Source of the DNA: Patescibacteria group bacterium
GTDB taxonomy: Bacteria; Patescibacteriota; UBA1384; CAJBMM01
Length of the DNA stretch: 64,000 nt
Reading direction: 5' to 3'
Assembly: GCA_041660565.1 (NCBI GenBank)
Contig: JBAZWC010000002.1
Span: 217,836-281,835, forward strand
Within the stretch, counting starts at the first letter, position 1. Each line of letters starts with the position of its first letter. Below, piece by piece: positions 22,251 to 43,908 of this stretch. The notes under the pieces are model-generated. The model was given only the letters and a program-made list of their open reading frames with translations, did not search any database and had not been told where the DNA came from. Both the position numbers and the translations under genes were made by a program.

Positions 22251-22751
22251 CTAGACCGTGTATGCCCGGTTGCCGCCGTGCAGCGGTTCGTGTCGCCCGA
22301 TGTTCGCGTTGACGTCGCTCAGGTAGAAGGTATGGTTTCCGCCGTTACAAGGTGCCCGCAGAGCGGGCGCGGGACGAACGCCGGATCTGGCTGTCGCGTA
22401 GATGCCGTGGCCGTCGATGGCCATGCTGTTCGTCGCGTTGATCGTCGCCCAATGGTTGTACGTGTCGCCGATGTTCACCTTGACGCCGTTGGCCGGCGGG
22501 CCGGTGTCGATCGCGTTGAGGCCGGTGACCGGGGCCGTGTCGAAGTCGCCCGTCGCCGTCGTGCAGATGTCAGTCGCTGTCCATAGATTGTACGTCGAAT
22601 CGGCCGTCGCCAAAGTCGTCAAGGTGACGACGGTCGGCGGCGAGCTGTCGACGGCGAACGCGGTGTCGTTCCGCACCGTTGCCGTAGCGGGCAACGTGAA
22701 CAGGACGAGCATCGCGAACACCGCCGTCACGAGAGCGAGCACATTCCTCAT
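22251..22751 (-). CDS. GC-rich secreted hypothetical protein (signal peptide; Thr/Asn/Gly-rich)
   Basis: 166 aa. The signal peptide is MRNVLALVTAVFAMLVLFTLPATA. A strong SD AAGGAGGG lies 8 nt upstream on the minus strand. The segment is about 65% GC. The plus-strand ORFs overlapping it are judged antisense artefacts. Confidence 0.5.
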   Translation of the reverse strand: MRNVLALVTAVFAMLVLFTLPATATVRNDTAFAVDSSPPTVVTLTTLATADSTYNLWTATDICTTATGDFDTAPVTGLNAIDTGPPANGVKVNIGDTYNHWATINATNSMAIDGHGIYATARSGVRPAPALRAPCNGGNHTFYLSDVNANIGRHEPLHGGNRAYTV

Positions 22752-22933
22752 GGGCTTGTCCCTCCTTGGGGTGGGGTGTTCGACTTGTCTTGTACTAGGA
22801 TATTTGCATTATAGCGCAAACGCTACAGTGTGTCAAGAGTTTTAAAGAGTGTTTTTGGAGGTAAAATTAGCAATTTAATGCTTACGCCGTGACGAAACGG
22901 AGATATTTGGATAAAAACATTCCCCCCGCGGCA

Positions 22934-23161
22934 TCATTTTGCCTCGGGGGTGGGGTTCGTAAACAGCTCTTGGTTGCAGTAGGCGCAGCGTGCTCTGCGG
23001 TCTTGTCTAGAGAGGTGGATTCGAGTGCCGTCGCGCAATTGAAGGTGATATCGCCGTGGCCCACAGTGACCGCATTTCGACATATTTGGGGCAATGGTGT
23101 AGAACTGATCCCAGAAACTCCTTTCTCTGACAATGATAATCTCTGGATCGATTTCAGGCAT
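22934..23161 (-). CDS. small zinc-ribbon protein (CxxC...CxxC), GC-rich
   Basis: 75 aa with CGHCG and CAYC motifs. SD GGAGG lies 7 nt upstream of the ATG. It is adjacent to the 22251-22751 gene in the same GC-rich island. Confidence 0.45.
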   Translation of the reverse strand: MPEIDPEIIIVRERSFWDQFYTIAPNMSKCGHCGPRRYHLQLRDGTRIHLSRQDRRARCAYCNQELFTNPTPEAK

Positions 23162-23271
23162 CCGATTTCCTCCGCGGAGTGGTCATTACTAAGTATAGAA
23201 TAGGACGATTTAGCAAATTGTCAAATTCCAATACAAAAATCCGGAAATTAATCCAAGGGAGATTATTTTAC

Positions 23272-34967: not shown

Positions 34968-35100
34968 TTCCTAGATTATACCACAGATTTGTTAATAATC
35001 CGTAGGGGCGGACCTATGTGTCCGCCCGCATAGTATTGTTTATTGTAGAGTTTTGTGGTATAACAACACTGCAAGCACTCTACGTTTCAGGAGACAGTCC

Positions 35101-35784
35101 ATGAAAGCGTTTGGCAAGGTCGTTTTGGCTTTTGCGCTAGTGCTCGCTCTACTCCTTCCGTCCGCCTGCTTCGCGCAGGCGCCGACTACTACTCCCAAGG
35201 TGGCTGTTCTTCCTTGGGTCTTCACCGAGAACGGGCGGGCGACTAACTCGACCAAATCCTCGGCGGTTACCACTGTCGAGAAGATGGTGGTGGACCTGCT
35301 GGCGAAGGTTGGGCTCGAGCGTGTGGACGACGGCAAGGTTACGGGGGTATGGTCGCGCGATCTGGGCAAAGAGTTGCCAACCGGCGCCGCCTTCCCTGAC
35401 GACCGAGACTTACTCGCATTGGGTCAGAAGCTGGACGTCGACTACGTCATGGTCGGCAACTGCGCCTGGCGCGTGAGGTCCGTCTGGGTGGGGTTTGGCC
35501 CCAAGACCAAGGCGGAGTGCGAGGTGTCGGTTCGCGTTATCGACGTCAAAGCTGGCGTTGTTGACTACAAGACGGTGGCCAACTCCGACTCCACCAAAAA
35601 GGAGGACCCGCTCGCCATCGCCGGGACACTGCTGATTACACCAATCTTCACCTTCGTCAGTGGCGGTCCGAAGACCCCTCATATGCAGAGGTCCGGGGGA
35701 TTCGCCACGGCTAAGGCGGTCGGTGGGTGGGCGACCAAGTTCGCGACGACCGGGCAGAAGATCAAGATCGACGACAAGAAGTAG
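35101..35784 (+). CDS. GC-rich secreted protein, paralog A (CsgG/LpoB/TolB-N-like AVLPW motif)
   Basis: The signal peptide ends ...ACFA|QAP. Conserved motifs are KVAVLPWVFTENG, DYVMVGNCAWR and KAECEVSVRVIDVKAGV. The ATG at 35101 has SD CAGGAG. An extended -10 TGgTATAAC is at 35056-35064. An identical terminator hairpin is at 35805-35839. Confidence 0.5.
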   Translation: MKAFGKVVLAFALVLALLLPSACFAQAPTTTPKVAVLPWVFTENGRATNSTKSSAVTTVEKMVVDLLAKVGLERVDDGKVTGVWSRDLGKELPTGAAFPDDRDLLALGQKLDVDYVMVGNCAWRVRSVWVGFGPKTKAECEVSVRVIDVKAGVVDYKTVANSDSTKKEDPLAIAGTLLITPIFTFVSGGPKTPHMQRSGGFATAKAVGGWATKFATTGQKIKIDDKK

Positions 35785-35958: not shown

Positions 35959-36594
35959 GTGAAATGGTTCTGCCATGTCGTGCTTGTTCTTGTTATGTGT
36001 TCGTCTGCGTGCTTTGCGAAGGCGCCAACAGGATCGCTCAAGGTGGCGGTGCTACCGTGGGTCTTCACCGAGAATGGGCAGGAGACCACCGTGGCAAAGT
36101 GCCCCGCGGTGACGGCCGTCAAGGGTATGGTGACAATACTGTTGCCCAAGGCGCGGCTCATTTGTCTGGACGAAGCCAAGGTCACGGGTGTCTGGATGCG
36201 CGATATGGGCAAGAAGCTACCTTCCGGCACCGCCTTCCCCGATGATCGTTCGCTGGTGGCTTTGGGTAAGAAGCTGGGCGTAGACTACGTGATGGTTGGC
36301 AACTGTGCCTGGCGGATGCAATCGCCTTGGGTGGAGCGGGGACCGAATTCCAAGGTAGAATGCGCCGTCAGCGTGCGGATCGTCAACGTCAAGACCGGCG
36401 TTGAGGCCTACAAGAACACCGCGAGCACCAACTCGTCCCGCAAGGAAGCTCCACTCACGATCACCCGTGACATGCAGATCTCCTCAATGGTGATCAACAG
36501 TGGCCCCAAGACTCCGCGCATGGGGCTAACGGGCGGATTTGCGGCGGCCAAGGCGCTTAACCCGTGGGTGTCCAAGTTCGCCGGCAAGAAGTAA
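35959..36594 (+). CDS. GC-rich secreted protein, paralog B (about 55-60% identical to paralog A)
   Basis: GTG start with SD GGGAGG 6 nt upstream. It has the same motifs as paralog A. Its own promoter is TTGAAT - 17 nt - TGgTATAAA (35893-35921). The terminator at 36618-36650 is near-identical to that of paralog A. Confidence 0.5.
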   Translation: MKWFCHVVLVLVMCSSACFAKAPTGSLKVAVLPWVFTENGQETTVAKCPAVTAVKGMVTILLPKARLICLDEAKVTGVWMRDMGKKLPSGTAFPDDRSLVALGKKLGVDYVMVGNCAWRMQSPWVERGPNSKVECAVSVRIVNVKTGVEAYKNTASTNSSRKEAPLTITRDMQISSMVINSGPKTPRMGLTGGFAAAKALNPWVSKFAGKK

Positions 36595-36915: not shown

Positions 36916-38484
36916 TCACTTCTTGACGAGGGCGGCCACGATTTTATCCGCGGCCACCAGCGTCTCCAACTTGGATGTGGCCTCAGATATCAGAGACTCC
37001 GTTGCCGCCAGCTCGTCGCGTTGTCGCTGTGCCAACGCGGTTCGATCGTCTATGACCCGGGTCAAGCGGTTGATTGCCTGCTGGAGCTTGTCGGGTGCGG
37101 GTGTGGCGGGCGTGTTCTGCGGGTGTGGCGTGGGTGGCACTGGTGACGCGCCGTTATGCCCCGCCTGGTTAAGACGGTCCATGGCCAGAGCGATCAAGTC
37201 GTACTCGTGGCCAGGTTTCAGCGTCAGATCGTCCTCGAGGGTAGCCGCCCCGCCTTTGAGGTTTGTCATTACCTTGATGGGCGTCGCGAATACCAGGGGT
37301 TGATTGAGACCGGGTCTAGCGAAGGCGTGCTTGCTCCGTAGTAAGCAGTTGGTTGCTGATGTTACTTCACGGCTCGACGCGCCGATCTGTTTGCCGATTC
37401 GAACGGAGCGCACTTTACCGCCGTTCTCAAAGATCTCCTTGATCAGGTGGTATGCTACTTTGATCTGGACAGGCCCGGTTAGAATCACCGGATCCCCGGT
37501 TAACTCAGGCATCGAATATCGTGCCGGTGCGGTGTCTGCCATTGCGTTGTCTCCTGGGAGTGCGCTGGGTTGGTCTTGGGGTGGTGATGGTGCAACTTCG
37601 TCGTCTGGAGTCAGCGTTTGATCGAGCGGAGTCTGGCAGGTACCGTGCGCCCCGTTTCGGTGTTGAGAGTGGGTGATGAAAGGCTGGGTCATGTCTGTGC
37701 CATCCGTTGCACACGCCATGTCTTGTAACCACCCGTTGTTAAGCAAGCGCTTTCTTGCTTGCCGTTCCAGTTGGTACACCCTCGACTCTGACCGGCGCAA
37801 GACTTCACCGATCTCTTTGTATGTCATCCCGCCGAAGTAGTAGCAGAGAGCTACCTTTCTTTCATTACTCGGTAGGGTATTTACAGCTTGCAGGATGACG
37901 CGACGTGCTTCATTATCCTCGGCTTCCGCTGCTACATCAACCTGCTTGTCTCGAACCATATCTGCGATGGTAATGGTTTCCTCGGTGTCAACCGGTTTGT
38001 CGATCCTGACAAGGGAAGTGCGTTCTTTCTCTGCGCACAAGCCAAGGTAGGATTTGATGTCTAGCTTCAACTCACGCGCAACCTCGTCATCTGTCGGAGG
38101 CCGACCCATCATTGATTCCAAACGGGCTATAACAGCTTCGATCACCTTGATGTTCTCACGTACGGTACGGGGAACCCAGTCTTCTTCGCGCAGTCCTTCC
38201 AGGATCGCTCCTCGAATTAGCGCGATGGCGTAGGTTTCGAACTTAACCATTCGGGTCAGATCAAATTGGTCCACTGCCTTGATTAGACCAATTGCGCCAT
38301 AACCCGCTATGTCGCCTATCTCCATCGTTGGTGGCAGACACGGTATCATTCTACCAGCCGATACTTTGGCTAGGTAAGAGTAGTGGGTGATCAACGCGGC
38401 TCGAGCCCGTGGATCACCCCATTGCTTGAACCGGCGCCAGTTTTCACTGATGCTTTCGGGGCGATCCTGAATTGCCGTGGCCAC
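36916..38484 (-). CDS. FliA/WhiG-type (sigma-28 family) RNA polymerase sigma factor with a Pro-rich C-terminal extension of about 270 aa
   Basis: Region 2 (GDIAGYGAIGLIKAVDQFDLTRMVKFETYAIALIRGAILEGLREEDWVPRTVR), region 3, and region 4 (LPSNERKVALCYYFGGMTYKEIGEVLRRSESRVYQLERQARKRL). The extension has PPQDQP/PPTPHP linkers and a C-terminal coiled coil. The GTG start has SD GGAGG 5 nt upstream. The segment is about 62% GC. Confidence 0.65.
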   Translation of the reverse strand: MATAIQDRPESISENWRRFKQWGDPRARAALITHYSYLAKVSAGRMIPCLPPTMEIGDIAGYGAIGLIKAVDQFDLTRMVKFETYAIALIRGAILEGLREEDWVPRTVRENIKVIEAVIARLESMMGRPPTDDEVARELKLDIKSYLGLCAEKERTSLVRIDKPVDTEETITIADMVRDKQVDVAAEAEDNEARRVILQAVNTLPSNERKVALCYYFGGMTYKEIGEVLRRSESRVYQLERQARKRLLNNGWLQDMACATDGTDMTQPFITHSQHRNGAHGTCQTPLDQTLTPDDEVAPSPPQDQPSALPGDNAMADTAPARYSMPELTGDPVILTGPVQIKVAYHLIKEIFENGGKVRSVRIGKQIGASSREVTSATNCLLRSKHAFARPGLNQPLVFATPIKVMTNLKGGAATLEDDLTLKPGHEYDLIALAMDRLNQAGHNGASPVPPTPHPQNTPATPAPDKLQQAINRLTRVIDDRTALAQRQRDELAATESLISEATSKLETLVAADKIVAALVKK

Positions 38485-40811: not shown

Positions 40812-41795
40812 ATGGCAACAAAAGAAGAGATTTTAGATTACATTAAACTGTTGGCCGAGCAAAAAGTGGTGAGCAAAGAAGAGCTTAATTTAGCGTTTGA
40901 TTCGGGCAACGGTGGCCAAATAGACGGTACGACTCCCAAAAAGCTTAACATCTCTGAAGTGCTGTATTTCTTGGGTGGTGGGATTGTGTTTTTGGGCATC
41001 GCTATCATGATCGCGCAAAACTGGGTAGGCTTAAGCAGCTTTACAAAAATATTAGCAACACTTGGGTCCGGTATCGCCGCCTATGCGGTTGGTTACGTAT
41101 TCAGTCGAGATCATCGTACCGAAGCAGTTAGCTCCGCATTCTATTTATTGTCTGCGCTGGTTTTGCCAATTGGATTATGGGTGGTTTTTGGCGGCTCACC
41201 CACGTTCGATCCTAAGCATGGTATCCAAGCGATCATCGCCGCAATATTACTAGCATTATTCTTGGGATCATATCTGGCATTCCGCAAGAATTTATTTGCC
41301 TTGTTTAGCGTTATGTATGGAACGTGGTTGTTCTTTAGCCTAACTTCTATGATGGCAAGCGGGAATGCATATTTGTACGGTGTAAATTTTTATCAATACC
41401 GCGCCCTCGCGTTGGGTGTGTCCTATATGCTACTTGGAAACGCTTTTTCCAAGAACTCACTAATATCGATTCACGGATACCTTTACAGCTTTGGAATACT
41501 TGGGTTTCTTGGCTCGGCATTGTCACTATGCAACTGGTGGTCAAGCGAAAATCTATTTTGGGTGTTTGCTTTTCCGCTCTTAGTATTGGGGGCAATCTCT
41601 ATTAGTGTTCGTATCAAGAGCAAAGCATTTTTGGTTTTTGGCACAATTTATCTAATGATTTATATTTTGTTGGTTACGGCAAGATACTTCTCCACTGGCC
41701 TTGGTTGGCCACTTTCACTGGTGATGGCCGGGTTAGCGTTGATTGGTATTGTTTTTGCCGCTGTCTCGGTTAAAAAGAAATATCTAACCAAGTAA
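40812..41795 (+). CDS. polytopic membrane protein (DUF2157-like)
   Basis: Soluble N-terminal helix-rich segment followed by about eight TM helices. It is adjacent to and coupled with the upstream ORF (1-nt gap). Confidence 0.4.
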   Translation: MATKEEILDYIKLLAEQKVVSKEELNLAFDSGNGGQIDGTTPKKLNISEVLYFLGGGIVFLGIAIMIAQNWVGLSSFTKILATLGSGIAAYAVGYVFSRDHRTEAVSSAFYLLSALVLPIGLWVVFGGSPTFDPKHGIQAIIAAILLALFLGSYLAFRKNLFALFSVMYGTWLFFSLTSMMASGNAYLYGVNFYQYRALALGVSYMLLGNAFSKNSLISIHGYLYSFGILGFLGSALSLCNWWSSENLFWVFAFPLLVLGAISISVRIKSKAFLVFGTIYLMIYILLVTARYFSTGLGWPLSLVMAGLALIGIVFAAVSVKKKYLTK

Positions 41796-41895
41796 ATTTT
41801 ATATTTTATGCTTAAAGTCCGATTGCCAACCGGACTATTTAGCGTATAATAAATATATCTGTACCTGCCCTTATCTCTTTCTTCGGGAGAAAGTA

Positions 41896-42330
41896 ATGCG
41901 CGCGTTTGGCTCGTGGTTTTCCAGTGTCTGGATGAGCCTAAAGGGTTGGCGTCCGTTCCAATCTCGGACTGCGCAATATCGCGTCCAGGCCGAGGTTGTG
42001 GCAGACTGGGTGGCGAGTCAGGTTAGGTTGATGCTTCAGATCAAACCTGGTTCAGACCTAGACTGGGACATCTCGCACTTCTCACTCTATTTGGCTCGCG
42101 CCATTGCGGAGGAACTGGGGCGAGAGGACGGCATACTCTCAATCGTCAATACCGAGAGCACCCGGCCAATCCCTATCTTTGCCAGAGCACTTACGCTGGC
42201 TCGTATCAATCAGCGGAGGGTGGTCAATTCTATCCCTTGTTGTCGGATTCGAATTGTTCCCGGCTGGGTCAAGGCGTATAGCCTAGAGGACCATGAAGCC
42301 GCCCCAAAGACGTTGCAATGTCCCGACTAG
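41896..42330 (+). CDS. GC-rich hypothetical cytoplasmic protein
   Basis: 144 aa in a roughly 60% GC segment. SD GGGAG lies 6 nt upstream. No family is recognised. Confidence 0.35.
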   Translation: MRAFGSWFSSVWMSLKGWRPFQSRTAQYRVQAEVVADWVASQVRLMLQIKPGSDLDWDISHFSLYLARAIAEELGREDGILSIVNTESTRPIPIFARALTLARINQRRVVNSIPCCRIRIVPGWVKAYSLEDHEAAPKTLQCPD

Positions 42331-42426
42331 CCCTGTCCTACCGGCCGCCCCGCGCTTTCTGCGAGGCGGCTCTGCTTTGTTGTACTAATATCTAAATAGT
42401 GATATAATAACATCACCGGCTAGGAA

Positions 42427-42750
42427 TTGTTGCCGGAATTCATCCCAAGGGGGATAACGGTCTTGTCAGAAACCGAAATACGCTCACAGCCAATGGTGTG
42501 CAAGTGCGGCACGGCGGCAGTAGTACATCCCGACTCAGAGAAGGGGGTCGGAAAGAAGAACTGGGTGCAATGCCCAAGGTGTAAGGCGGAGTGGTATCCG
42601 CGATGGTGCTGGAACTGCGGTACCAATGTCGACAGTCGCGTTGATGGGCAGTGTAATAGCTGCGCCTGGCGGATTTGCCCAAGCTGTGGTGCGTGCAAGA
42701 ACTCGATAGATCGAGATAAGTGCAAGAAGCAAATGGAAACAACCTATTAG
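42427..42750 (+). CDS. GC-rich Cys-rich multi-zinc-ribbon small protein
   Basis: Five CxxC pairs (CKCG, CPRC, CWNCG, CNSC, CPSCGAC). The start is uncertain. The TTG at 42460 has SD AAGGGGGA, and the ORF-track call is a TTG at 42427. Confidence 0.4.
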   Translation: MLPEFIPRGITVLSETEIRSQPMVCKCGTAAVVHPDSEKGVGKKNWVQCPRCKAEWYPRWCWNCGTNVDSRVDGQCNSCAWRICPSCGACKNSIDRDKCKKQMETTY

Positions 42751-42848
42751 TTCCAACCTATGGATCACAAAGCCGGTATGCAACGTCGCGTGCCGGTTAT
42801 TATTTTCTTGAAGGTTGTCCGAAGTAACGATTTATTATTGAATGTGAA

Positions 42849-43739
42849 TTATATAGGCCACCCTTTTTTGAACGCATTCCAATATGCATCAATAAACATT
42901 TTTTGAAGCTGATCGCGGTGAAACTCGCTTTCGTATTGGACTAATAATGACGACCCACCCTGTCCTGTGATTTGATACGTATCAACCAAAGTCATTCCCC
43001 ATGACGCGACATCTTGTGGTCGGGTATCAAGGTGGCAGAAGCCGACTGGATATGCGTCGTGAACAATAGAACAACGCATTTGATAAAAATTTTTGGATAG
43101 TTTTATTAGAAATTTGTTAAGTGACGCAATATTTATGCTGTCGATATAATTGATGCAGCAGCAACTTGCGCCAGTGCCATTGATGTTTGAAAAACAATAT
43201 TTTTCTGCATAGTGTCGGTTTTTGCGTATCAGTGAATTGTACACAAGATGTCGGGTAGTTCTTCTTTCAAGAGGGAAAATCCCTGGTTTTGCGAATTGAT
43301 AACCTTTTAGTAATAGTCTTTTATCGGTCTCACTGAGGCATTCGATCATGAATCTGGTAAAACGAGCAGGTTTGCTATTCCTGTACCTTTTGATGCTCTG
43401 TCCCTTTATTTTCCCCGGGCTAAATTTTCCTGCACTACGGGGTGATATAGCTTCTGAAGTAATTATCGAGGCAAGCAAAGGTATTGTTCTCGCTTTTTCG
43501 CTCAGTTCGTTTTGAGTTACTCCTTGCCAAAAAGATAATGCAAAAAAGAAGGAGAGCAAATCCTTGTGTCTATTAATGTAACTTTTCGAGGCTTCAAAAA
43601 TTTCCTGCTGGGTTTTACCAAAGATCGTTTGCAATAGCTTTGAGCATTTTTTTGAATGGTTCAATCGTTCCTGTTGAGTAACGCCTGTCTTGTGTTTGAC
43701 CGGATCAATGGCAAAATATGGGTTCAATATAGTTCGCAT
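42849..43739 (-). CDS. AT-rich hypothetical protein with an Rx4H motif (possible HEPN/Abi-like), immediately downstream of tRNA-Glu
   Basis: 296 aa at about 40% GC, lower than both the core and the neighbouring GC islands. The C-terminal MRCSIVHDAY fits the HEPN Rx4-6H signature. It is co-oriented with and 95 nt downstream of tRNA-Glu. Confidence 0.35.
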   Translation of the reverse strand: MRTILNPYFAIDPVKHKTGVTQQERLNHSKKCSKLLQTIFGKTQQEIFEASKSYINRHKDLLSFFFALSFWQGVTQNELSEKARTIPLLASIITSEAISPRSAGKFSPGKIKGQSIKRYRNSKPARFTRFMIECLSETDKRLLLKGYQFAKPGIFPLERRTTRHLVYNSLIRKNRHYAEKYCFSNINGTGASCCCINYIDSINIASLNKFLIKLSKNFYQMRCSIVHDAYPVGFCHLDTRPQDVASWGMTLVDTYQITGQGGSSLLVQYESEFHRDQLQKMFIDAYWNAFKKGWPI

Positions 43740-43833: not shown

Positions 43834-43908
43834 TGGTAGCCTCACGGGGAATTGAACCCCGGTTTGCAGGATGAGAACCTACTGTCCTAACCACTAGACG
43901 ATGAGGCC
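43834..43908 (-). tRNA. tRNA-Glu (anticodon CTC), CCA encoded
   Basis: Reverse complement: GGCCUCA-UC-GUCU-AGUGGUUAG-GACA-G-UAGGU-UCUCAU-CCUGC-AAAC-CGGGG-UUCAAUU-CCCCG-UGAGGCU-A-CCA. Cloverleaf with anticodon CUC. Confidence 0.8.

What the first reader, a model, noticed from the sequence alone, without database searches (positions are those of the whole stretch)
41880..42760. Second GC-rich pair: 144-aa cytoplasmic protein + 107-aa protein with five CxxC pairs, convergent with an AT-rich tRNA-linked ORF
This segment of about 60% GC is flanked by a terminator hairpin (41832-41852) and by the AT-rich 42849-43739 gene. The Cys-rich protein (CKCG, CPRC, CWNCG, CNSC, CPSCGAC) could bind two or three zinc ions. 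Its start codon is ambiguous, with two TTG candidates and one SD (AAGGGGGA). Together with 22934-23161 it suggests a family of small zinc-ribbon proteins that travel with GC-rich cargo.
Basis: partly seen in the sequence, partly recalled or inferred. Interest (0 to 1): 0.5.

Follow-up and report, generated by a model that had tools for sequence, protein, structure and literature searches.

The report
Unannotated three-zinc finger gene plus orphan ORF
The cysteine-rich ORF is a real small gene that three annotation pipelines missed; it belongs to an unnamed three-zinc-finger family found mostly in Patescibacteria, while its 144-aa neighbour is an orphan and the proposed "GC-rich cargo" link to another zinc-ribbon gene does not hold.

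Summary
The window comes from a Patescibacteria MAG contig. Both ORFs exist as described. The segment is 53.8% GC, not about 60%, against 45% for the window.

**Cys-rich ORF (most likely TTG 42463 to 42750, 95 aa).** JGI, Logan and NCBI did not call it. A word-index search found nothing. An exhaustive HMMER search found 50 relatives, the best at E = 2e-11. In a 25-sequence alignment, 11 of its 12 Cys are kept in 20-25 sequences, along with W44, Y45, W50, D57, R59 and W69. The layout is an N-terminal CxC…CxxC ribbon followed by an 8-Cys module that is probably cross-braced, so probably three Zn. No Pfam, NCBIfam, PDB or fold match is significant.

Eight of 10 genome hits are Patescibacteria. 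In relatives the module is fused to S1 domains, cold-shock domains and SF1 helicases. I therefore infer a nucleic-acid- or helicase-associated zinc module.

**144-aa ORF.** It has its own promoter, SD and terminator and the best codon score of the six frames. It has no detectable homolog and no confident fold.

**Not supported.** The 75-aa zinc ribbon at 22934-23161 lies on the minus strand and is unrelated. Relatives do not sit in GC-rich islands. There is no integrase, att repeat, or phage or plasmid match.

The parts
41807..41846 (+). Hairpin after the DUF2157 gene: inner stem 41816-41821/41831-41836, outer stem 41807-41812/41841-41846. It may terminate the upstream gene. It has no clean U-tract.
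Evidence: -13.9 kcal/mol, z = -3.46 against shuffles.
41823..41850 (+). Sigma-70-like promoter, TTGCCA-16-TATAAT, for the 144-aa ORF.
   Evidence: 11 of 12 consensus matches, the best in the 2.2-kb scan.
41885..41889 (+). Shine-Dalgarno-like GGGAG, 6 nt before the ATG at 41896.
   Evidence: Read from the sequence.
41896..42330 (+). 144-aa orphan ORF. GC1/2/3 = 0.57/0.48/0.62. Predicted mostly helical. Function unknown.
   Evidence: only this frame is open, and its codon log-odds of 0.008 compare with -0.11 to -0.29 for the other five frames. JGI and Logan called it; NCBI did not. The only hit among 5.8 billion proteins is itself. AF2 pLDDT is 42.7.
42343..42383 (+). Terminator-like GC-rich hairpin (42343-42371) with a U-rich tail, TCTGCTTTGTTG, after the 144-aa stop codon.
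   Evidence: -21.3 kcal/mol, z = -2.06. One search lists the inner stem at 42353-42368.
42380..42408 (+). Promoter-like site for the Cys-rich gene: TTGTAC, a 17-nt spacer, then the extended -10 TGaTATAAT (TG at 42400-42401, TATAAT at 42403-42408).
   Evidence: Read from the sequence. The scan does not list it, because only 3 of 6 bases match in the -35 hexamer.
42447..42454 (+). Shine-Dalgarno AAGGGGGA, 8 nt before the TTG at 42463.
   Evidence: Relatives carry GGAGG-type SDs at the same distance, two of them before TTG starts.
42463..42750 (+). Cys-rich gene, 95 aa from TTG 42463 (alternative starts: TTG 42427 or 42430, ATG 42493). N-terminal ribbon: C13, C15, C37, C40. 8-Cys module: C49, C52, C64, C67, C72, C75, C78, C87.
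   Evidence: 50 homologs at E <= 1e-3, and a family HMM score of 84.6 bits at E = 3e-25. AF2 with the alignment gives pLDDT 71. No pipeline called the gene.
42771..42808 (+). Intrinsic terminator of the Cys-rich gene: 11-bp stem with 6 GC pairs, then ATTATTTTCT.
   Evidence: -30.4 kcal/mol, z = -3.44 on the + strand, against z = -0.44 on the - strand.
42849..43739 (-). Convergent 296-aa AT-rich hypothetical gene, downstream of tRNA-Glu on the same strand. Nothing shows it to be functionally linked.
   Evidence: no family, defence-system or PDB match. NCBI annotates it as a 292-aa hypothetical protein (MFA6082520.1).
43834..43908 (-). tRNA-Glu(CTC). No repeat of its 3' end elsewhere in the window.

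Best explanation
The segment holds two independent, monocistronic small genes in a Patescibacteria genome.

(1) 42463-42750 encodes a roughly 95-aa protein of an unnamed but conserved family. It has an N-terminal zinc ribbon (CxCG…CxxC) followed by WY. After that comes an 8-Cys module, CWNC-x4-DSR-x4-CxxCxW-x2-CPxCGxC…C. The module is most likely cross-braced: C49/C52 with C72/C75 bind one Zn, and C64/C67 with C78 plus a later ligand bind the second. That makes three structural Zn in all.

Inferred function: a nucleic-acid-binding (RNA or ssDNA) or helicase-docking module, acting here as a stand-alone small factor.

(2) 41896-42330 is a lineage-specific orphan ORF with its own promoter, SD and terminator. 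It is probably expressed, and its function is unknown.

About half of the Cys gene's raised GC comes from its amino-acid composition (Cys, Gly, Trp, Arg, Pro, Ala codons). The rest comes from high GC3. This is not evidence of a mobile 'cargo'.

Shown: the gene is real, the Cys pattern is conserved, the taxonomic skew exists, the fusions exist, and the transcription signals are present. Inferred: the metal identity and stoichiometry, the cross-brace topology, and the nucleic-acid or helicase role.
For: - Homology: one search found 50 hits at E <= 1e-3 in 1.84 billion representatives (best 2.1e-11 and 3.8e-11). About 12 of them cover both modules.
- Conservation: searches show 11 of the 12 Cys kept in 20-25 of 25 sequences. 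W44, Y45, W50, D57, R59 and W69 are kept in 21-24 of 25.
- Correlated loss: P0016, L012 and L013 lose C64, C67 and C78 together while keeping C49, C52, C72 and C75. A cross-brace predicts exactly this.
- FYVE-like spacing: the profile aligns C1-C6 with FYVE and C1 fingers (E = 0.0013-0.09, hhalign 60%).
- Taxonomy: 8 of 10 genome loci are Patescibacteria.
- Fusions: P0024 is 5xS1 + module + AAA_11/AAA_12 helicase. L010 is module + SF1 helicase. P0014, L014 and L015 are CSD + module. In L011 the gene sits 40 nt upstream of a Pif1-like helicase.
- Signals: promoter, SD and terminators.
- Structure: AF2 gives pLDDT 71 with beta-hairpin ribbons.
- Composition. Expected GC with host codon usage is 0.497 against 0.539 observed. 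Relatives are GC-richer than their locus in 11 of 12 cases, while their flanks are not.
- 144-aa ORF: frame-specific signal; promoter.
Against: - There is no experimental or expression evidence for either gene.
- The function rests only on domain fusions in distant relatives (about 40% identity). The neighbourhoods of stand-alone members are heterogeneous.
- The query lacks the usual last ligand (C-x3/4-C after C78) and has C87 instead.
- The host codon model does not favour the Cys ORF's frame: -0.148 against -0.071 for an antisense frame.
- For the 144-aa ORF, length alone gives P of about 0.1. It has no homolog, a low-confidence fold, and PGAP did not call it.
Confidence: 0.6

Rival explanations
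1. The two ORFs are a horizontally acquired GC-rich cassette. On this view, small zinc-ribbon genes such as this one and 22934-23161 form a family that moves together with GC-rich cargo, here next to tRNA-Glu.
For: - The segment is 8.8 points GC-richer than the window, with GC3 of about 0.62 against a mean of 0.47 in long ORFs.
- It lies within 1.1 kb of the 3' side of a tRNA gene.
- Both genes are orphan-like. The window has two other GC-rich islands.
Against: - The 75-aa protein is not homologous.
- The proteins of the three GC-rich islands share no similarity, apart from one tandem paralog pair in the second island.
- There is no integrase and no repeat of the tRNA 3' end.
- Neither protein matches phages, plasmids or viral contigs.
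- Relatives are embedded among housekeeping genes whose flanks have normal GC.
- About half of the Cys gene's GC excess follows from its amino-acid composition.
Confidence: 0.15
2. The Cys-rich stretch is not a gene. It would be a GC-rich non-coding spacer or structured RNA, or the real gene would be one of the overlapping antisense ORFs (42420-42725 or 42440-42742, minus strand).
For: - Three pipelines left it uncalled.
- Several frames are open over about 300 nt.
- An ORF of this length is common in shuffles.
- The antisense frame sharing third positions has the more typical GC1 > GC2 pattern and a slightly better host codon score.
Against: - Protein-level homologs at 40-50% identity conserve Cys, Trp, Asp and Arg positions across phyla and in multidomain fusions. 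That cannot happen for a non-coding or antisense reading.
- The SD, promoter and a strong + strand terminator all fit the + strand.
- No Rfam match appears even at E <= 1.
- The low GC1 is explained by 12 TGY and 5 TGG codons.
Confidence: 0.03
3. The Cys-rich protein is a metal-handling or redox protein rather than a nucleic-acid-associated zinc finger. It could be rubredoxin-like Fe(Cys)4, an Fe-S carrier, or a metallothionein-like buffer.
For: - CxxCG and CPxCG knuckles are shared with rubredoxins. The profile gives weak rubredoxin hits (E = 0.7-0.9).
- In L012 the neighbour is a rhodanese.
Against: - These hits are at chance level.
- The strictly conserved aromatic and charged residues between ligands (WY, CW, DSR, W69) are typical of structural fingers with a binding surface.
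- The repeated fusions are to S1, CSD and SF1 helicase domains, not to redox enzymes.
- Some members drop one whole site, as structural fingers do.
Confidence: 0.1
4. The 144-aa ORF is a chance open frame in a GC-rich intergenic stretch, and only the Cys-rich gene is real.
For: - P is about 0.1 for such an ORF in shuffles.
- It has no homolog and no family or PDB match. The only hits are chance-level, E = 0.035-0.07 to Enterococcus phage lysins.
- AF2 pLDDT is 43.
- NCBI did not call it.
Against: - It is the only open frame of the six, and the other five carry 3-9 stops.
- Its GC1/2/3 pattern is coding-like, and its codon log-odds is clearly the best of the six frames. That score is similar to those of other accepted hypothetical genes here.
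- It has an 11/12 promoter, a GGGAG SD at 6 nt, and a terminator-like hairpin right after the stop.
- Otherwise about 650 nt would be non-coding in a compact genome.
- The word-index search also missed every relative of the Cys protein, so 'no homolog' is provisional.
Confidence: 0.3

Closest known systems
FYVE / C1 / PHD-type cross-braced (treble-clef) zinc fingers
   Same: - Eight metal ligands with the spacing CxxC-x(9-12)-CxxC-x(4)-CxxC-x(2)-C…C.
- The profile aligns C1-C6 with EEA1, RUFY1 and ARHGEF2 fingers.
- Two family members touch Pfam FYVE_2 at E of about 1e-3.
- The correlated loss of ligands 3, 4 and 7 fits interleaved pairing.
   Different: - The FYVE signature motifs for PI3P binding (WxxD, R(R/K)HHCR, RVC) are absent.
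- The conserved DSR and W69 are not FYVE features.
- The protein is bacterial, and it is preceded by an extra ribbon.
- The similarity is below any family threshold, and no fold match reaches significance.
Generic bacterial zinc ribbons (Pfam DZR PF12773, Zn_ribbon_3 PF13248, Zn_Ribbon_1 PF13240)
   Same: - CxxC…CxxC knuckles on beta-hairpins.
- Residues 61-97 of the 107-aa form match weakly.
- A few relatives pass these models.
- The structural neighbours are ribbons from ribosomal proteins, TFIIS/TFS, PriA, TopoI and Znf-GRF.
   Different: - The query scores 12-13 bits against cut-offs of 27.
- The family has its own conserved non-Cys residues and a fixed three-site architecture that these models do not describe.
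Zinc-binding domains attached to Upf1-like SF1B helicases (Upf1 CH domain, nidovirus helicase ZBD). Recalled from general knowledge, not tested by direct alignment.
   Same: - A Cys-rich domain of about 12 ligands and three Zn, placed N-terminal to an AAA_11/AAA_12 helicase core.
- That is the architecture of relatives L010 and P0024.
   Different: - The window protein is stand-alone, with no helicase nearby.
- The ligands here are all Cys, with no His.
Small archaeal and bacterial zinc-finger mini-proteins (e.g. HVO_2753-like, DUF1610, YfgJ)
   Same: - Under 100 aa, multiple CPxCG knuckles, stand-alone and monocistronic, and often missed by annotation.
- They appear as weak hits.
   Different: - Ligand number and spacing differ.

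Membership tests
Unnamed 'CWNC-DSR' three-zinc family (defined here) | N-terminal knuckle pair CxC(G)…CxxC followed by (W)Y | tested here: met
   C13, C15, C37, C40, W44 and Y45 are present. They are conserved in 21-25 of 25 sequences.
Unnamed 'CWNC-DSR' three-zinc family (defined here) | Core CW(N/Q/S)C-x4-D(S/G)R-x(4-6)-CxxCxW-x2-C(P)xC(G)xC | tested here: met
   C49, W50, C52, D57, R59, C64, C67, W69, C72, C75 and C78 are all present. The family HMM scores 84.6 bits at E = 3e-25.
Unnamed 'CWNC-DSR' three-zinc family (defined here) | Last ligand 3-4 residues after C78 (C-x3/4-C) | tested here: not met
   The query has NSID there. Its next Cys is C87, 8 residues after C78. This is a variant within the family.
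FYVE domain (Pfam FYVE / FYVE_2) | Eight Cys in cross-brace spacing | tested here: inconclusive
   The spacing aligns with EEA1 C1-C6 (E = 0.015; probability 60%). The topology is inferred only from the correlated ligand loss.
FYVE domain (Pfam FYVE / FYVE_2) | PI3P-binding motifs WxxD, R(R/K)HHCR and RVC | tested here: not met
   None is present in the sequence. The position before C64 reads DGQ, not RRHH.
Pfam DZR / Zn_ribbon_3 | Score at or above the Pfam gathering threshold | tested here: not met
   12.1 and 13.1 bits against cut-offs of 27.3 and 27.
Rubredoxin | Significant sequence or fold similarity to a single Fe(Cys)4 domain of about 54 aa | tested here: not met
   E = 0.72-0.93 over 12-14 residues only.
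Helicase-attached zinc-binding domain (Upf1 CH / nidovirus ZBD type) | Covalent attachment N-terminal to an SF1B helicase core | tested here: not met
   The window protein is stand-alone. Only relatives L010 and P0024 are fused.
Helicase-attached zinc-binding domain (Upf1 CH / nidovirus ZBD type) | Sequence or fold similarity to CH or ZBD structures | tested here: not met
   [not shown]
tRNA-integrated genomic island | Integrase or recombinase gene inside the island | tested here: not met
   Only three ORFs lie between the DUF2157 gene and tRNA-Glu, and none has a recombinase domain.
tRNA-integrated genomic island | Direct repeat of the tRNA 3' end at the far boundary | tested here: not met
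   No second copy of 16 or 25 nt of the tRNA-Glu 3' end is found with up to 3 mismatches.
Family shared with the 75-aa zinc ribbon at 22934-23161 | Detectable homology between the two proteins | tested here: not met
   BLASTP E = 2.6. hhalign probability 0.8%. The family HMM does not hit it.
Known anti-phage defence or phage protein families | Match to PADLOC or PHROG models | tested here: not met
   No hit for the 144-aa, Cys-rich or 296-aa proteins, apart from one chance-level PHROG match at E = 0.12.

The most novel reading that the evidence does not exclude
The CWNC-DSR module is an undescribed bacterial three-zinc domain whose ancestral role is to partner SF1B helicases and S1 or CSD RNA-binding proteins. 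That would make it functionally analogous to the Upf1 CH domain or the nidovirus helicase ZBD. In the reduced genomes of Patescibacteria it would have been freed as a stand-alone, trans-acting small regulator of RNA or DNA helicase activity or of translation. The gene class would be systematically missed by annotation because of its TTG starts and its Cys/Trp-skewed codon content.
Probability: 0.15. Interest if true: 0.55.

Novelty: new variant of a known kind. Interest (0 to 1): 0.3.

Why it matters
The finding shows that a conserved small gene can escape three independent annotation pipelines. It also escaped a k-mer-indexed homology search and was recovered only by exhaustive profile search. 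It defines a compact three-zinc module with no Pfam or NCBIfam model. The module is enriched in Patescibacteria, whose small genomes are rich in unknown small proteins. Its recurrent fusions to S1, cold-shock and SF1 helicase domains give a testable functional lead. This is a modest addition to the catalogue of zinc fingers, not a new kind of system. The 'GC-rich cargo' idea, which would have been the more interesting claim, is not supported.

Tried and rejected
- Word-index homology searches found nothing for the Cys protein and only the protein itself for the 144-aa ORF.
- Pfam, PHROGs, PADLOC and NCBIfam scans of the three local proteins gave nothing above threshold.
- Rfam gave nothing at gathering threshold or at E <= 1, so no ncRNA explanation holds.
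- tblastn against phages and plasmids found no match for the Cys protein. For the 144-aa ORF the only hit was E = 0.07 to Enterococcus phage lysins. This echoed PDB 6ist at E = 0.035, with no catalytic residues aligned, and I treat it as chance.
- Viral-contig scans with the family core and with the 296-aa protein found nothing.
- Synteny in a sister genome could not be tested. The one metagenome relative of the DUF2157 gene has 51% identity and a different downstream region. The two contigs carrying the locus are identical, so there is no polymorphism to analyse.
- A search for an att-like repeat of the tRNA-Glu 3' end found none.
- Fold searches of the AF2 model gave only generic ribbons. 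The AFDB library was not available.
- Single-sequence AF2 of the 144-aa ORF was uninformative.
- A search for a conserved neighbour of the family found none in 12 loci.
- The idea that the 296-aa protein is a HEPN-type toxin, from its RCSIVH (Rx4H) motif, has no supporting match.
- Two literature searches found no description of the family.
Full report
**Source and setting.** Exact-sequence look-ups place the window on a 374-kb contig of a Patescibacteria (CPR) MAG. The records are JGI 3300037810 Ga0376277_0000191 and NCBI proteins MFA60825xx with locus tags WC773_. The local gene order is:
- a 170-aa ORF;
- a DUF2157 membrane protein (40812-41795, +);
- the 144-aa ORF (41896-42330, +);
- the Cys-rich ORF (42427/42463-42750, +);
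- a convergent 296-aa hypothetical gene (42849-43739, -);
- tRNA-Glu(CTC) (43834-43908, -);
- a NUDIX gene (-);
- a ClpB-like ATPase.

**Checking the observation.** Both ORFs and the Cys motifs are present as described. Several details need correcting.
- GC is 53.8% for 41880-42760 (55.4% and 53.4% for the two ORFs), against 45.0% for the window. It is not about 60%.
- The first motif, CKC, is CxC. The protein has 12 Cys, five CxxC and one CxC. Shuffling its residues gives five or more CxxC with P = 0.003.
- The upstream hairpin is at 41807-41846. It overlaps an 11/12 sigma-70-like promoter at 41823-41850.
- The comparison gene at 22934-23161 is on the minus strand.
- ORF length alone is not significant in this composition. 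Shuffles reach 144 codons or more in 9.8% of trials and 107 or more in 44%.

**Is the Cys-rich ORF a gene?** No pipeline called it. JGI and Logan leave a gap between the 144-aa and 296-aa genes. The NCBI accessions of the DUF2157 and 296-aa proteins are consecutive. A host-trained codon model does not favour its frame, which probably explains the miss. The word-index search of 5.8 billion proteins found nothing.

The exhaustive HMMER search of 1.84 billion representatives found 50 proteins at E <= 1e-3. The best were 2.1e-11 and 3.8e-11, at 40-50% identity. About a dozen cover residues 5-12 through 78-88, meaning both modules.

Alignments show near-perfect conservation.
- Cys: C13 in 23/25, C15 in 24/25, C37 in 24/25, C40 in 25/25, C49 in 25/25, C52 in 25/25, C64 in 22/25, C67 in 22/25, C72 in 25/25, C75 in 25/25, C78 in 20/25.
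- Non-Cys: W44, Y45, W50, D57, R59 and W69, each in 21-24 of 25.

This rules out a non-coding spacer and the overlapping antisense ORFs. A family HMM hits only this ORF in the six-frame translation of the whole window (84.6 bits, E = 3e-25).

**Transcription and translation signals.** Each ORF is its own unit.
- The 144-aa ORF has the promoter at 41823-41850 and GGGAG 6 nt before its ATG. A GC-rich hairpin at 42343-42371 with a U-rich tail follows its stop codon.
- The Cys gene has TTGTAC-17-TGaTATAAT, an extended -10, at 42380-42408. It has the SD AAGGGGGA at 42447-42454, 8 nt before TTG 42463. A strong + strand terminator lies at 42771-42798 and is followed by ATTATTTTCT (z = -3.44 on the + strand, -0.44 on the - strand).
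- With a transcription start near 42415, the TTGs at 42427 and 42430 would have a leader of 12 nt or less and no SD. ATG 42493 also has no SD.
- Relatives carry GGAGG-type SDs. Two of them (L007, L011) also start at TTG, and family N-termini run 2-13 residues before the first Cys.
- I therefore favour TTG 42463 (95 aa), with ATG 42493 (85 aa) as the alternative.

**Architecture and likely chemistry.** The N-terminal part is a ribbon, C13-x-C15-G…C37-P-x-C40, followed by WY. The C-terminal module has eight ligands: C49, C52, C64, C67, C72, C75, C78 and C87.

Profile searches of the PDB give only weak hits, and these align C1-C6 with cross-braced FYVE and C1 fingers. ARHGEF2 C1 scores E = 0.0013 and EEA1 E = 0.015. 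hhalign against EEA1 FYVE gives 60% probability.

Three Saccharibacteria members (P0016, L012, L013) have lost C64, C67 and C78 together while keeping C49, C52, C72 and C75. This is what interleaved, cross-brace pairing predicts. Three Zn sites are thus inferred, not measured.

The query deviates from the family in lacking the usual C-x3/4-C last ligand. It has C87 instead.

**Distribution and context.** A pattern-plus-tblastn scan of one genome per GTDB species gave 10 loci.
- Eight are Patescibacteria (Saccharimonadia/Saccharibacteria, Berkelbacteria, and unclassified). All eight encode stand-alone proteins of 75-115 aa.
- One is the N-terminus of a 1549-aa SF1 helicase in a Rhodothermales MAG.
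- Two are C-termini of cold-shock-domain proteins, in a cyanobacterium and in Endonucleobacter.

Among the metagenomic hits, P0024 is 5xS1 + module + AAA_11/AAA_12 helicase, and P0014 is CSD + module. Hits to giant PKD and LRR surface proteins (P0018, P0032) look compositional.

The neighbourhoods of stand-alone members differ in every locus:
- XRE/RadA/RecJ;
- DUF3467/TspO/L3;
- EF-Tu/S10 upstream and a Pif1-like helicase 40 nt downstream;
- L10/L12 upstream;
- rhodanese/cupin/GTPase;
- META;
- PNP.

No relative of the 144-aa or 296-aa proteins occurs in any of these loci. The recurring theme is fusion or adjacency to ssRNA- or ssDNA-binding domains and SF1 helicases. My functional inference (a nucleic-acid- or helicase-associated zinc module) rests on that. 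It is an inference from relatives at about 40% identity, not a demonstration.

**The 144-aa ORF.**
- For coding: it is the only open frame of the six, and the others carry 3-9 stops. GC1/2/3 is 0.57/0.48/0.62. Its codon log-odds (0.008) is clearly the best of the six frames (-0.11 to -0.29) and is comparable with other hypothetical genes here. It has a promoter, an SD and a terminator.
- Against: there is no homolog in the word-index search, no family or PDB match beyond chance, an AF2 pLDDT of 43, and no PGAP call.

The same word-index search missed every relative of the Cys protein, so 'orphan' is provisional. I put the probability that it is a real gene at about 0.65-0.7.

**The 'GC-rich cargo' interpretation.** The 75-aa protein at 22934-23161 has one CxxC…CxxC ribbon and is unrelated to this family. 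The proteins of the window's three GC-rich islands share no similarity, except a tandem paralog pair in the second island.

Family members are GC-richer than their locus in 11 of 12 cases, by 1.6 to 10 points. Their flanks sit at the locus average. For the query, host codon usage would already give 49.7% GC against 53.9% observed. About half of the excess is therefore amino-acid composition, and the rest is raised GC3 (0.62 against 0.47).

There is no integrase, no att-like repeat of the tRNA-Glu 3' end, and no phage, plasmid or viral-contig match. Foreign origin of the two-gene segment cannot be excluded, because GC3 is raised in both genes. Nothing positively supports it, and no sister genome was available to test for an empty site.

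**Verdict.** The proposed family link and the cargo idea fail. The gene is a new, slightly deviant member of an undescribed three-zinc-finger family concentrated in Patescibacteria. It is a new variant of a well-known kind of protein and of modest interest.

Noticed in passing
window 35053-35784 and 35959-36594 (+): Two tandem GC-rich ORFs (GC3 about 0.76) are paralogs with 55-58% identity. Both have signal-peptide- or lipoprotein-like N-termini. There is no Pfam match apart from a chance-level LpoB hit. They sit in the largest GC-rich island (35.0-38.5 kb), next to tRNA-Gln and a sigma-70 gene.
   Followed up: partly
window 22251-22751 (-): A 166-aa ORF with a signal peptide has an extreme GC3 of 0.86 (64.8% GC observed against 52.5% expected from host codon usage). 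This is far more atypical than the finding itself. NCBI annotates it as hypothetical (MFA6082503.1). A 147-aa ORF overlaps it on the + strand.
   Followed up: partly
window 22934-23161 (-) vs 22889-23203 (+): The 75-aa single zinc-ribbon ORF has a strong GGAGG SD and was called only by Logan. The overlapping + strand 104-aa ORF gets a slightly better host codon score (-0.009 against -0.107), so the coding strand there is not settled.
   Followed up: partly
window 36916-38484 (-): This sigma-70 family protein has regions 2-4 in its first ~250 residues and a C-terminal extension of ~270 residues that matches no Pfam family. JGI and Logan choose different starts (469 vs 522 aa).
   Followed up: no
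window 42849-43739 (-): The 296-aa AT-rich protein downstream of tRNA-Glu contains an Rx4H motif (RCSIVH) and a CCC run. It has no Pfam, PADLOC, PHROG, NCBIfam or PDB match. Its cluster holds only this MAG's own two gene models (296 and 292 aa), so it too is effectively an orphan.
   Followed up: partly
L007 7881-8183 (NCBI MFA6533901.1): PGAP annotates the family member in another Patescibacteria MAG as 69 aa starting at MVECPSCH. That start cuts off the conserved first CxCG knuckle. A TTG with a GAGGAGG SD lies upstream, which suggests a systematic mis-start for this family.
   Followed up: partly
L011 7911-10046; L020 2241-3120; L008 5388-7123: Several stand-alone family members sit beside translation-gene clusters: after S10, after L10-L7/L12, and upstream of L3. 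One lies 40 nt upstream of a Pif1-like helicase, echoing the helicase fusions. This could be chance in small, dense genomes.
   Followed up: partly
P0006 (313 aa, metagenomic): This protein carries two tandem copies of the C-terminal 8-Cys module only (…RCYSCKTNLDNEVDLECRNCGWIICAQCGACGCGY…). The module is therefore an independent, duplicable domain without the N-terminal ribbon.
   Followed up: no
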